Shown here in pieces: positions 3,001 to 6,000 of a DNA stretch of 7,056 nt. The stretch's first letter is position 1; every line of letters starts with the position of its first letter. The DNA comes from a virus (Duplodnaviria; Heunggongvirae; Uroviricota; Caudoviricetes): positions 1 to 7,056 of IMG/VR virus record IMGVR_UViG_2609459844_000004; one strand, 5' to 3'. The position numbers are program-made.

Positions 3001-6000
3001 GTGATTAATGCCTACGCAAAATAACGACGACAAAATCAGCCTGGTTATTGCCGGAAGGTCGCATTCTGACTGGAGCAGTTATCGTATTGACAGCGATTTC
3101 CTGAAACGGGAAATATATTTCCGCAGAACTGGTAGCCGAGGCTGACGTCATGGAAACCGTGAAGGCGTCAGCAGCGCGCGTTCTGGCACAAATCACCCCG
3201 TTGCAGGCATCAATGACGCTGTCAGACTGGGAGCGCGTGTATGACGTGGCACCACGTGAGGGCGCAACGCAACAGGAAAGGCGACAGAATATCCTGGTAA
3301 AAATGGCGGCGACAGGCGGGCTGTCAATTCCCTATTTTAAAAATCTGGCCGCAAGCCTGGGATACACCATAACGATAACCGAACCGCGAGCCTTTCGCAC
3401 CGGGGTAAATCGTTGCGGTGACCGTCTGCTTATCCCTGAGATGCGCTGGGTATGGCAGGTCAATGTTATTGGTGCAAAAACGCCGGTATACCGTTTCAGA
3501 ACAGGCGCATCTGCAACAGGTGAACCACTGACAGCCTTTGGTGAATCCATTTTAGAAAATACCTTTAAAGACCTTAAACCGGCTTTTACAGACTGTTATT
3601 TCACGTATGAGGATAAGCAGTAATGCAGAATTTAATGCCTCCGGTGAATACGCCGGATCAATTGTTTCACGATGGTGACCCGACTCAGGGCATTGAGGGC
3701 ACTATTGTTTATGCAGAGCACATGAATAATCAGCAGGGGGCCATTCGCGACCTGCAACAGGAAGTTATTAATGTACTCAGCGAAGTTGGTATATCGCCGG
3801 ACCCGAAAAAACAGAGTCAACTGGCTGAGGCGCTGTCTTTATATGTAGGGGAAAAAGTTCCTGACGCATCATTAACGAAAAAGGGCATCGTTCAGCTCAG
3901 CAGCGCAACAGACAGTGACTCAGAAGAACTGGCAGCCACACCAAAGGCAATAAAGGCGTTAGCACAAAAAATTACAGAATTACAGGGTACAGCTTTACCG
4001 GTCGGGACACCAATACCGTGGCCGTCTGATTCAGTGCCATCCGGCTATGCCTTAATGCAGGGACAAAGTTTTGATAAAGGTTCTTACCCTAAACTGGCCA
4101 CAGCTTACCCGTCCGGGATTATCCCGGATATGCGGGGCTGGACCATTAAGGGAAAACCTGCCAGTGGTCGGGCTGTTCTCTCTCAGGAACAGGATGGCAT
4201 TAAATCGCATACTCACAGTGCCAGCGCATCAAATACTGATCTCGGCACGAAAAGCACCAGCTCTTTCGATTATGGAACCAAAACGACATCCAGTTTTGAT
4301 TATGGCTCCAAATCAACAAATTCAACGGGTGACCATGCACATTCGTTTGGTGTTTATCAGGGTGATTACGCGGGGGGGCAAGCCGCTGACGGTAATGAAA
4401 CGCCGACAGGGACAAAATGGACGTCCACTAACGGTAACCATGCACACTCTGTTCAGATTGGTGCTCATAACCATACAGTAGGTATTGGTGCTCATACGCA
4501 CACCGTTGCGATTGGTTCACATGGACACACCATCACCGTTAATGCTGCCGGTAACGCAGAGAACACCGTCAAAAACATCGCATTTAACTATATCGTGAGG
4601 CTTGCATAATGACGTTTAAAATGAGCGATAACGCACAAACCATTCGTGTATTTAATTATCTTGAAGATACAAAAGAATTTATCGGTAGTGGTGACGCTTA
4701 TATACCACCTCATACCGGACTACCCGCAAACTGTACGGATATTGCGCCACCGGAAATCCAGGAAGGTTTTGCTGCTGTATTTAATAGCGATAGCCAGTCC
4801 TGGGACCTTGTAAAAGATTATCGGGGCAAAACGGTTTATTCAACGGAAACCGGAAATGCAGTCCCGATATCCGAACTGGGAGAACTTCCAGAAAATGTCA
4901 CATTTATTGCGCCAGACGGAGAATACCAACGCTGGGATGGTAGCCAGTGGGTGACCGATGAAGAAGCAGAGCGTAATGCACTGATTAATCTGGCAACAGA
5001 AAAGAAAGCCAGCCTGCTAAAACAGACAGGAGAACAAATCGCAATCTTACAGGATGCTGTTGATTTTGGTGAAGCGACACCAGAAGAACAGGAGCAACTG
5101 ACAGCTCTCAGAAAATTACGAATAAAGTTAAATCGAATTCAACCGGAAAACGCGCCAGATATTGACTGGTCAGACTTTGAATAAATCAGACAGCCGCCCG
5201 CAGGCGGCTTTTTATCATTCAGAGGCTTTATGTCTGTATTAATTTCAGGTGCGCTGATTAATGGCGCTGGCGTTCCGATGGCGGAATGCAAAATTTATTT
5301 AGATGCACAGGTTAATACCAGTGAAGTGGTTACTGAATCATTTGCGGTTATTGAAACCGATGCAGCGGGACAGTATGCCTTTGAAGCGCAAAAAGGCAAA
5401 TACACCGTACACATCAAGCAAAAGAACGGCCCTAAGTGCTGCGTGGGTGATATTTCGGTTTACGACGACTCAAAGCCCGGCACACTGAATGATTTTCTGA
5501 CCGCTCTCGATGAAGGCGACCTGAAGCCAGATGTGGTGAAACGATTTGAAGATTTGACAAGTCAGGCGCAACGAAGTGCAGATGTGGCAATATCAGCGAC
5601 AAAAAGGGCAGAAGCGTTACTGTCTGAAATGCAGGGAATAGCCGGTAGTTTTCCCGGTTTGCGCTTTGAGAACTTTGATGACATCGTGAGTCGTTGCACT
5701 ACTGCAATGTTAAAACTGGAACAACCCGAGGTTGTTGATACATCAATATCTTTAAAAATAAAAGAAAATATCGATTTTAATTATGTCGGTGCAGTTAACG
5801 GATATTGCGATATATCCGAACCGGAAAAATATAAAGTCTCCATGTATGCCTACACAACGGGAGAATATTTTAACGGCGACGCTAATTTGAATAGTGACGG
5901 AATTTTCTATTTCAGACGTTGCTGGACGGGAGCAAAACAGTTTCGTCTTATTCGGATTGAGGATAATGCGTGGCTCACAACGCTGGAGTTTCCACTGCTC

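What the first reader, a model, noticed from the sequence alone, without database searches (positions are those of the whole stretch)
3008..3623. Second deletion scar: 45-codon hub-like fragment abutting an N-truncated gp48-like gene
A short ORF with a baseplate-hub-like N-terminus stops after 45 codons, and 5 nt later a DUF2313/gp48-like gene starts that seems to lack its own first ~25 residues. In Mu-like phages hub and gp48 are separated by three baseplate genes (gp45-gp47), so a second deletion probably removed them. Together with the A' fusion this gives nested deletions that retained only the immunity region and the fibre cassette, which may reflect selection rather than random decay.
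Basis: inference. Interest (0 to 1): 0.4.

Follow-up and report, generated by a model that had tools for sequence, protein, structure and literature searches.

The report
Deletion scar in defective Mu-like prophage
A 3.3-kb internal deletion in a decayed Mu-like prophage of E. coli joined the first 33 codons of the baseplate hub gene to codon 19 of the gp48/YmfQ wedge gene; this is ordinary prophage decay.

Summary
The window is identical to E. coli 2-156-04_S3_C1 contig JNPF01000006.1. Aligned to two intact E. coli Mu-like prophages (STEC346, Z1324SEC0014), window 2123-3106 and 3105-5552 are collinear with segments that lie 3,306 bp apart in the intact phage. The lost DNA holds hub codons 34-403, the gp45 spike, gp46, gp47/J and the first 18 codons of the 190-aa YmfQ/gp48 gene.

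Corrections:
- The junction is a 2-nt 'AA' microhomology at 3105-3106, inside the 45-codon ORF and not in the gap before 3150.
- That ORF is a chimera of 33 hub codons plus 12 out-of-frame gp48 codons.
- The 157-aa ORF starts at internal Met34, so 33 residues are missing. They include invariant N-terminal positions and half of a predicted long N-terminal helix; in Mu the N-terminal region of gp48 joins the wedge core bundle.
- The two deletions lie side by side, 984 bp apart, and are not nested.

All ten fetched contigs that carry the junction are about 100% identical, so selection for retention cannot be tested. Both prophage ends survive, inside an ISEc1 copy.

The parts
3008..3106 (+). First 33 codons of the baseplate hub gene (Mu gp44/P-like). 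This is the true hub-derived part of the 45-codon ORF.
   Evidence: Collinear with L001 12886-12984, the start of the annotated 403-aa 'phage baseplate assembly protein' of STEC346, within a segment that is 96.2% identical at the nucleotide level. That reference protein carries Pfam GpP-like_1st, Gp44-like_2nd, NMB1110_3rd and a C-terminal domain. PHROG baseplate hub matches residues 1-32.
3105..3106 (+). Deletion junction: 2-nt 'AA' microhomology shared by both parental sequences.
   Evidence: The left alignment ends at 3106 and the right alignment begins at 3105 against both L001 and L015. The 34-mer spanning the junction occurs once in the window and in 10 other fetched contigs.
3107..3145 (+). 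Out-of-frame tail of the chimeric 45-codon ORF (REIYFRRTGSRG plus stop). This is gp48/YmfQ DNA read in the wrong frame.
   Evidence: The translation diverges from the hub protein after K33, while the DNA is identical to L001 16291 onward, inside the YmfQ gene.
3105..3149 (+). Retained YmfQ/gp48 codons 19-33 (NGKYISAELVAEADV). They are in frame with the 157-aa ORF, are closed upstream by a TGA created at the junction, and lack an ATG, GTG or TTG start.
   Evidence: The frame translation reads 'TAIS*NGKYISAELVAEADVMETVK...'. The ORF listing places the first start codon at 3150. One gene caller used the CTG at 3129 to give 164 aa.
3150..3623 (+). YmfQ/gp48 baseplate wedge gene, codons 34-190, opening at an internal Met. 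A GAGG at 3138-3141 lies 8 nt upstream of the ATG.
   Evidence: 100% amino-acid identity to residues 34-190 of the STEC346 YmfQ protein, with 1 synonymous nucleotide difference. Pfam PF10076 covers profile positions 29-150 of 150. PHROG phrog_203 covers profile positions 46-202 of 224. It aligns to Mu gp48 residues 39-177.
2123..3024 (+). 3' part of the DNA-circularization (Mu gp43/N-like) gene, from about codon 150, fused in frame to the first ~120 codons of the transposase A gene. This is the DNA retained between the two deletions.
   Evidence: Window 2123-3106 matches L001 12001-12984. Window 378-2124 matches L002 4019-5784. The junction view shows a 'TA' overlap at 2123-2124 and an in-frame fusion.
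3623..5184 (+). Intact tail fibre gene (328 aa) and tail-fibre assembly gene (191 aa) directly downstream. Context for the scar.
   Evidence: Pfam Phage_fiber_2, Collar and Caudo_TAP. Collinear with L001 without gaps at 97.1% identity.
383..540 (+). Left end of the Mu-like prophage (TGTGGGGTAGTGATCAATTCTGGGCGG...) with three AATTCTGGGCG-like repeats, inserted inside an ISEc1 copy (window 1-382).
   Evidence: The same terminal sequence abuts different host DNA in three prophages. Repeats sit at about 399, 473 and 524. Window 1-382 matches the ISEc1 transposase gene 3' region in L001.

Best explanation
The interval 3008-3623 is the scar of one 3,306-bp internal deletion in a Mu-like transposable prophage of E. 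coli.

Shown directly:
- The deletion joined hub (gp44/P-like) codon 33 to YmfQ/gp48 codon 19 at a 2-nt 'AA' microhomology (3105-3106).
- It removed hub codons 34-403, the gp45 spike, gp46, gp47/J and gp48 codons 1-18.
- The two genes are in different frames, so the hub stub runs 12 codons into gp48 DNA and stops. This creates the 45-codon chimeric ORF.
- The gp48 frame is closed upstream by a TGA at the junction and reopens only at internal Met34. This gives the 157-aa ORF.

Inferred:
- The breakpoint signature fits illegitimate, microhomology-mediated recombination (for example replication slippage or end joining), the usual route of prophage decay.
- The 45-aa peptide is a by-product with no function.
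- The gp48 remnant could still be translated from Met34. It has a fortuitous GAGG 8 nt upstream and lies 4 nt after the stop of the upstream ORF.
- It cannot do its normal job. It lacks the conserved N-terminal segment, and in Mu the N-terminal region of gp48 forms the core three-helix bundle with two gp47 copies. All its baseplate partners are also gone.
- The element had also lost about 27.1 kb, from A codon ~121 to N codon ~150. That removed transposition, replication, lysis, head and tail-tube/sheath genes, so no particle can be made.
For: - Two independent intact references give the same breakpoints: window 2123-3106 and 3105-5552 map to L001 12001-12984 and 16289-18736, and to L015 3001-3984 and 7289 onward.
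- The deleted genes are annotated and confirmed by Pfam as gp44-like hub, Mu Gp45, GP46, Baseplate_J and Phage_Mu_Gp48. Mu itself has the same gene order, gp43 to gp49.
- The junction is not an assembly artefact. The exact 34-mer is in 10 other contigs built by different assemblers from different samples.
- The 45-aa and 157-aa proteins are already deposited as KDW06577.1 and KDW06589.1 from E. coli 2-156-04_S3_C1, and the window equals that contig exactly.
- The family's modal length is 190 aa.
- The missing 33 residues include invariant L6, P12, Y16 and E30, plus predicted helix 3-9 and 13 residues of the long predicted helix 21-45.
- In Mu, the N-terminal region of gp48 forms the wedge core bundle, and the fibre docks on a loop at residues 133-155 (PMC11915804; PDB 9ki1).
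Against: - The parental prophage itself is not available. The closest intact relatives are 96-97% identical around the junction, so I cannot exclude that the same junction arose through two or more successive deletions.
- A 2-nt microhomology is too short to identify the recombination mechanism.
- Whether the 157-aa ORF is expressed was not tested.
- The AlphaFold model is of moderate quality overall (mean pLDDT 69), although blocks of 10 residues average 82-90 over residues 1-40.
Confidence: 0.93

Rival explanations
1. Selected domestication. The host keeps the immunity region and the fibre cassette because they are useful, for example for superinfection immunity or as a fibre-gene reservoir for recombination. 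On this view the gp48 remnant, which keeps the region that aligns with Mu's fibre-docking loop, still works with the fibre and chaperone. The deletion mechanism would be the same and only the reason for survival would differ.
For: - The repressor, ner, fibre, assembly and 608-aa fibre-like ORFs are all intact.
- The first deletion is in frame.
- The gp48 remnant keeps the region that aligns with Mu's fibre-docking loop at residues 133-155.
- An independently decayed relative, TUM9812, also kept c, ner and the fibre end.
Against: - All fetched copies of the scarred element are 99.97-100% identical. Intact ORFs are expected for a young element and say nothing about purifying selection.
- Differences from STEC346 mostly predate the deletion, so the synonymous and non-synonymous counts are uninformative.
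- TUM9812 kept the complete baseplate, so nothing specifically favours loss of gp44 to gp47.
- Neither junction occurs in any of 5,426 complete E. coli genomes, so the element is rare.
- The late-gene activator region was deleted and no promoter-like site lies near the cassette.
Confidence: 0.1
2. The junction arose in several steps, through two or more smaller deletions or a deletion followed by recombination between related prophages, rather than in one 3,306-bp event.
For: - The DNA flanking the junction is mosaic. The gp48 remnant differs from STEC346 by 1 nt in about 517 nt, while the neighbouring segments differ by 3-4%.
- The same segment is only about 79% identical to L015. This shows that recombination is common among these prophages.
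Against: No intermediate was found. No complete E. coli genome carries either junction. The breakpoints are clean, with no filler DNA.
Confidence: 0.06
3. Assembly artefact, or a natural short gene pair. On this view the 45-aa and 157-aa ORFs are either a misassembly or real full-length genes of a phage with a reduced baseplate.
For: None beyond the fact that both ORFs are open and were called as genes in GenBank.
Against: - The same junction appears in 10 other contigs from MEGAHIT, Logan, scaffolded-metagenome and NCBI isolate assemblies.
- The 45-aa ORF switches from the hub frame to out-of-frame gp48 DNA exactly at the alignment breakpoint.
- Nearly all complete homologues listed are 184-205 aa.
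- The remnant lacks the head, sheath, tube, spike and wedge genes.
Confidence: 0.01

Closest known systems
Phage Mu gp48 (baseplate wedge protein 3; PDB 9ki1) and the YmfQ/DUF2313 family (Pfam PF10076)
   Same: The 157-aa product is a clear homologue. Pfam gives 96.6 bits. BLASTP against Mu gp48 gives E 2e-13 over Mu residues 39-177. It sits directly upstream of the tail fibre gene, as in Mu. It keeps the region that aligns with Mu's fibre-docking loop at residues 133-155.
   Different: It lacks the first 33 residues of its own 190-aa orthologue, which corresponds to about the first 38 residues of Mu gp48. In Mu the N-terminal region contributes to the wedge core three-helix bundle. Its partner gp47 is absent.
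Phage Mu gp44 (P) baseplate hub, GpP-like family
   Same: The first 33 codons match 32 of 33 residues of the N-terminus of an annotated gp44-like hub of an intact E. coli Mu-like prophage. They also hit the start of the GpP-like_1st and PHROG hub profiles.
   Different: Only 25 of the 85 positions of the first of four domains are present, and the Pfam score is below the gathering cut-off. The last 12 residues are unrelated out-of-frame sequence. It is a gene fragment and not a hub protein.
Intact Mu-like prophage of E. coli STEC346 (NZ_CP091044.1, about 37.4 kb) and of Z1324SEC0014
   Same: Same terminal sequences. Same order of c, ner, A ... N, P, gp45, gp46, gp47, YmfQ, fibre and assembly genes. 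Identity is 91-97% over the shared DNA.
   Different: The window element lacks about 27.1 kb (A codon ~121 to N codon ~150) and 3,306 bp (P codon 34 to YmfQ codon 18). It sits in ISEc1 and not in an Rhs/PAAR gene.
Defective Mu-like prophage in puuC of E. coli TUM9812 (NZ_CP128926.1)
   Same: It is another internally deleted member of the same prophage group that kept both ends, c, ner and the fibre genes.
   Different: It has three different deletions (A to holin, endolysin to sheath, sheath to N) and retains the complete gp44 to gp48 baseplate block. The decay was therefore independent and does not share the hub/gp48 scar.
Laboratory mini-Mu elements (from my own knowledge, not tested here)
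   Same: Both Mu-type ends with repeated terminal motifs, plus the repressor, are retained around a large internal deletion.
   Different: This element arose naturally. It has no intact A or B gene and carries tail-fibre genes. Mobilisation by a helper phage is untested.

Membership tests
Phage_Mu_Gp48 / DUF2313 / YmfQ (PF10076) | Pfam score above the gathering threshold | tested here: met
   96.6 bits against a 37.4-bit cut-off, E 1.6e-27. PHROG phrog_203 'baseplate wedge subunit' gives E 6e-58.
Phage_Mu_Gp48 / DUF2313 / YmfQ (PF10076) | Full-length coverage, including the conserved N-terminal segment (L6, P12, Y16, E30 in 190-aa numbering) | tested here: not met
   The match covers profile positions 29-150 of 150. 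The ORF starts at Met34 of the 190-aa orthologue. Those N-terminal columns are invariant across 35 homologues. Homologue lengths are most often 190 aa.
Phage_Mu_Gp48 / DUF2313 / YmfQ (PF10076) | Gene position between gp47/Baseplate_J and the tail fibre gene | tested here: inconclusive
   The fibre gene follows directly at 3623. The gp47/J gene is deleted in the window but lies immediately upstream in the intact relatives.
Mu gp44/GpP baseplate hub | Pfam GpP-like_1st above the gathering score, together with the multi-domain hub architecture | tested here: not met
   22.7 bits against a 27-bit cut-off, covering profile positions 1-25 of 85. The intact orthologue has four or five hub domains over 403 aa. 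The window keeps 33 codons.
Mu gp44/GpP baseplate hub | Orthology of the retained codons to the 5' end of a real hub gene | tested here: met
   32 of 33 residues are identical, and the DNA is collinear with L001 12886-12984 and L015 3886-3984.
Mu-like transposable prophage | Left-end order of c repressor (minus strand), ner and transposase A, and Mu-order late genes N, P, gp45 to gp48, fibre and assembly | tested here: met
   The window is collinear with the STEC346 prophage and follows the Mu gene order. In the window the series is interrupted by the two deletions.
Mu-like transposable prophage | TG...CA termini flanked by a short target-site duplication at varied insertion sites | tested here: met
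   The same TGTGGGG... and ...GTTACA termini occur in three different host contexts: ISEc1, puuC and an Rhs/PAAR gene. Each is flanked by a 4-bp direct repeat (AAAG, CACG, AGTA). The repeat is 5 bp in two of the three if the terminal A is counted as host DNA.
Mu-like transposable prophage | Complete gene set able to transpose and form particles | tested here: not met
   About 27.1 kb and 3.3 kb are missing relative to the intact relatives. A is cut at about codon 121. The genes from B through the tape-measure gene, and gp44 to gp47, are absent.

The most novel reading that the evidence does not exclude
The roughly 6.8-kb remnant is a natural mini-Mu. It keeps both transposase-binding ends, the repressor and ner, and a single early-promoter-driven unit: ner, the A'::N' fusion, the hub stub, the gp48 remnant, the fibre and the chaperone. 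A superinfecting relative supplying A and B might mobilise or package it. Alternatively it could donate its fibre cassette, including a gp48 remnant that keeps the region aligning with Mu's fibre-docking loop, by recombination. Its persistence would then reflect function and not accident.
Probability: 0.08. Interest if true: 0.35.

Novelty: already known. Interest (0 to 1): 0.08.

Why it matters
It matters little beyond annotation. KDW06577.1 (45 aa) and KDW06589.1 (157 aa) are deposited as 'hypothetical proteins'. They should be annotated as a chimeric pseudogene fragment and an N-truncated YmfQ/gp48 pseudogene. The case is a clean, base-resolved example of prophage decay through deletions with 2-nt overlaps at the breakpoints. 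It also shows that a short ORF next to a truncated ORF can mark a breakpoint lying inside the short ORF. If the mini-Mu reading were true, the element would be a natural mobilisable carrier of immunity and host-range genes, but nothing here supports that over simple decay.

Tried and rejected
- A DNA search of window 2700-3900 against 50,697 phage records found only a 109-bp match to a Klebsiella phage. It was not useful, and the informative relatives were E. coli prophages.
- Direct BLASTP of the 45-aa ORF against Mu gp44 gave E 0.2. Mu itself is too distant to prove the hub origin, so the close orthologue was needed.
- My first junction scan of GTDB representative genomes used a pattern I mistyped, one A short. 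The corrected pattern also found nothing. This is expected, because that collection holds one genome per species.
- Searching for either junction in 5,426 complete E. coli genomes to find an intermediate and order the two deletions found none. The order stays unknown.
- TUM9812 looked like a possible intermediate because its A gene is annotated as cut at 360 nt. Its A homology actually continues to L002 6544, and its deletions are different. I rejected it as an intermediate.
- Counts of synonymous and non-synonymous differences against STEC346 cannot test for selection after the deletion, because most differences predate it and all scarred copies are identical.
- I suspected a third deletion at the right end. 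I rejected this because the right terminus and the remaining ISEc1 sequence follow the 608-aa gene directly, as in Z1324SEC0014.
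Full report
**Observation.** The + strand carries a 45-codon ORF at 3008-3145 and a 157-codon ORF at 3150-3623. A TGA at 3143-3145 is followed by 4 nt and then the ATG. The short ORF hits the first 25 of 85 positions of Pfam GpP-like_1st, at E 9.6e-5 and below the gathering score. The 157-aa ORF hits Phage_Mu_Gp48 well above threshold, but only over profile positions 29-150 of 150. PHROGs agrees: 'baseplate hub' over residues 1-32 of the short ORF, and 'baseplate wedge subunit' over profile positions 46-202 of 224 for the long one.

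**Source of the window.** The window is identical, base for base, to positions 2-7057 of contig JNPF01000006.1 (33,877 bp) of E. coli 2-156-04_S3_C1, GCA_000703525.1. The two ORFs are deposited there as hypothetical proteins KDW06577.1 and KDW06589.1. Of 5,426 complete E. coli genomes, 5,314 match some part of the window (chiefly its widespread ISEc1 and tail-fibre segments), but none has a place covering 80% of it.

**Comparison with intact relatives.** The best matches are Mu-like prophages in which the window's 2123-5549 span is spread over about 6.7 kb. In E. coli STEC346 the annotated order is:
- tape measure
- DNA circularization protein
- baseplate assembly protein (403 aa)
- baseplate assembly protein V
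- GP46
- baseplate J/gp47
- YmfQ family protein (190 aa)
- tail fibre
- assembly protein

Pfam confirms these as a gp44-like hub, Mu Gp45, GP46, Baseplate_J and Mu Gp48. Phage Mu has the same order, gp43 to gp50.

**The deletion.** blastn gives two gap-free alignments. Window 2123-3106 matches L001 12001-12984 at 96.2% identity, and window 3105-5552 matches L001 16289-18736 at 97.1%. A second intact prophage, Z1324SEC0014, gives the same window breakpoints, 3106 and 3105. The window therefore lacks 3,306 bp, with a 2-nt 'AA' overlap at 3105-3106.

**Anatomy of the scar.**
- Window 3008-3106 is hub codons 1-33 (MPTQNNDDKISLVIAGRSHSDWSSYRIDSDFLK), matching the reference at 32 of 33 residues.
- From 3107 the DNA is YmfQ codon 19 onward.
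- The two genes are in different frames. The hub frame runs 12 codons through YmfQ DNA (REIYFRRTGSRG) and stops at 3143-3145.
- In the YmfQ frame the junction creates a TGA. Codons 19-33 (NGKYISAELVAEADV, 3105-3149) follow without an ATG, GTG or TTG.
- The first start is internal Met34 at 3150, and the 157 residues from there are 100% identical to the STEC346 protein.
- The breakpoint is therefore inside the 45-codon ORF, not in the short gap. Thirty-three residues are missing, of which 18 codons were physically deleted.

**Is the junction real?** The exact 34-mer across the junction is unique in the window. It is present in ten other contigs from different samples and assemblers: ENA metagenome assemblies, Logan assemblies of SRA runs, and the NCBI isolate assembly. 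Nine of these contigs were aligned to the window and are 99.97-100% identical to it; the tenth, the NCBI isolate contig, contains the window exactly. This rules out an assembly artefact. It also means all known copies are essentially one young clone.

**Is 157 aa a natural length?** No. Nearly all complete proteins among the 120 best homologues are 184-205 aa, with 190 the most common length. Mu gp48 aligns from its residue 39, whereas the full-length orthologue aligns from Mu residue 24. The missing segment contains columns that are invariant across 35 homologues: L6, P12, Y16 and E30.

**Structural consequence.** An AlphaFold2 model of the 190-aa orthologue has mean pLDDT 69, with blocks of 10 residues averaging 82-90 over residues 1-40. 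It predicts helices at 3-9 and 21-45. The remnant therefore loses the first helix, the conserved LLPPVSYDP stretch and 13 residues of the long helix. In the cryo-EM structure of Mu (PMC11915804; PDB 9ki1 found), the N-terminal regions of gp48 and two gp47 copies form the core three-helix bundle that fixes the wedge in the baseplate. The fibre docks on a gp48 loop at residues 133-155. By inference, the remnant keeps the fibre-docking part but not the part that builds the wedge, and its partners gp44 to gp47 are gone anyway.

**Context.**
- Window 378-2124 aligns to the left end, the c repressor, ner and the first ~121 codons of A of the STEC346 prophage.
- At 2123-2124 (overlap 'TA') it jumps in frame to about codon 150 of the DNA-circularization gene, roughly 27.1 kb further on. 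This produces the 420-aa fusion.
- The two deletions do not overlap. They lie side by side, separated by 984 bp of retained DNA, so 'nested' is the wrong word.
- The left terminus (TGTGGGG..., window 383) and the right terminus (...GTTACA, 97 bp beyond the window end in L016) are both intact. They are flanked by the two halves of an ISEc1 copy with a 4-5-bp direct repeat. AATTCTGGGCG-like repeats sit at both ends.
- Beyond ISEc1 lie genes with Pfam matches to a CN hydrolase, Ivy, an acyl-CoA dehydrogenase, a SIS-domain protein, a GATase_4 protein and a YkuD protein. From my own knowledge this resembles the yafV-ivy-fadE-gmhA-yafJ-yafK region of E. coli K-12.
- No promoter-like site lies near the scar. 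The only + strand site is at 1437-1465, upstream of ner, and a strong terminator-like hairpin follows the assembly gene at 5192-5209. If the cassette is transcribed at all, it is probably from the repressor-controlled early promoter. This is an inference.

**Selection or decay?**
- The retained ORFs are intact. With all copies about 100% identical, that is expected without selection.
- Differences from STEC346 mostly predate the deletions and cannot test the idea.
- Neither junction is found in 5,426 complete E. coli genomes, so the element is rare.
- An independently decayed relative in puuC of TUM9812 has three different deletions and keeps the whole baseplate.
- From general knowledge of Mu biology, a deletion that removes A, B, kil and the lysis genes is plausibly favoured because it removes lethal functions. 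That would be selection for loss, and it concerns the first deletion.
- For the 3.3-kb baseplate deletion, nothing suggests more than the ordinary deletional bias of bacterial genomes.

**Verdict.** The finding is a correctly recognised, ordinary deletion scar in a defective Mu-like prophage, now mapped to the base. It is of annotation interest only.

Noticed in passing
window 1-382, and L016 7155-7222: The Mu-like prophage is inserted inside the 3' part of an ISEc1 (ISAs1-family) transposase gene. The two ISEc1 halves flank the prophage with a short direct repeat, AAAG or AAAAG. The 127-aa ORF at 85-468 is a read-through of the transposase C-terminus into the prophage left end.
   Followed up: partly
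L016 383/7154, L014 6001/18499, L002 4026 and L001 20535: Across three insertions of this prophage group, TG...CA termini fit a 4-bp flanking duplication in all three cases (AAAG, CACG, AGTA). The 5-bp duplication typical of Mu fits only two of the three, and only if the right end is read as ...GTTAC. The terminal A is ambiguous.
   Followed up: partly
window 1762-3024 (junction at 2123-2124): The first deletion (about 27.1 kb, 'TA' overlap) is in frame. It gives a 420-aa fusion of the MuA N-terminal DNA-binding domain (residues 1-~120) to the C-terminal ~300 residues of the DNA-circularization protein. In GenBank it is variously named 'DNA-binding protein' or 'multidrug DMT transporter permease', and the latter is evidently a wrong name.
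   Followed up: partly
window 5230-7056: This is a complete 608-aa protein with a 'prophage tail fibre N-terminal' domain (residues 1-127) and a large C-terminal part with no Pfam match, although PHROG tail-fibre families hit it strongly. The window ends exactly at its stop codon. Relatives carry a different C-terminus plus a DUF4376 gene (STEC346), so this is a swappable host-range module. The C-terminal fold was not examined.
   Followed up: no
window 3107-3623 compared with its flanks: The gp48 remnant differs from STEC346 by 1 nt in about 517 nt, while neighbouring segments differ by 3-4%. The same segment is only about 79-80% identical to Z1324SEC0014 and TUM9812. This is fine-scale mosaicism among these prophages.
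   Followed up: no
L014 (E. coli TUM9812, NZ_CP128926.1 2738989-2751487): This is an independently decayed prophage of the same group, inserted in puuC. It has three different internal deletions (A to holin, endolysin to sheath, sheath to DNA-circularization gene). Its sheath::N fusion is also annotated 'multidrug DMT transporter permease'.
   Followed up: partly
L001 17056-17793 (STEC346): The tail fibre gene of the otherwise intact STEC346 prophage is annotated as a pseudogene missing its N-terminus. However, the DNA is collinear with the window's intact 328-aa gene and shows no in-frame stop in the window's frame. The annotation may be over-cautious.
   Followed up: no
window 399-534, and L016 7078-7117: AATTCTGGGCG-like motifs occur three times in direct orientation near the left end, and at least one inverted copy lies near the right end. 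They are candidates for the transposase-binding sites. The motif count in the whole locus is not by itself above chance (9 observed against 4.7 expected), but the copies cluster at the termini.
   Followed up: partly
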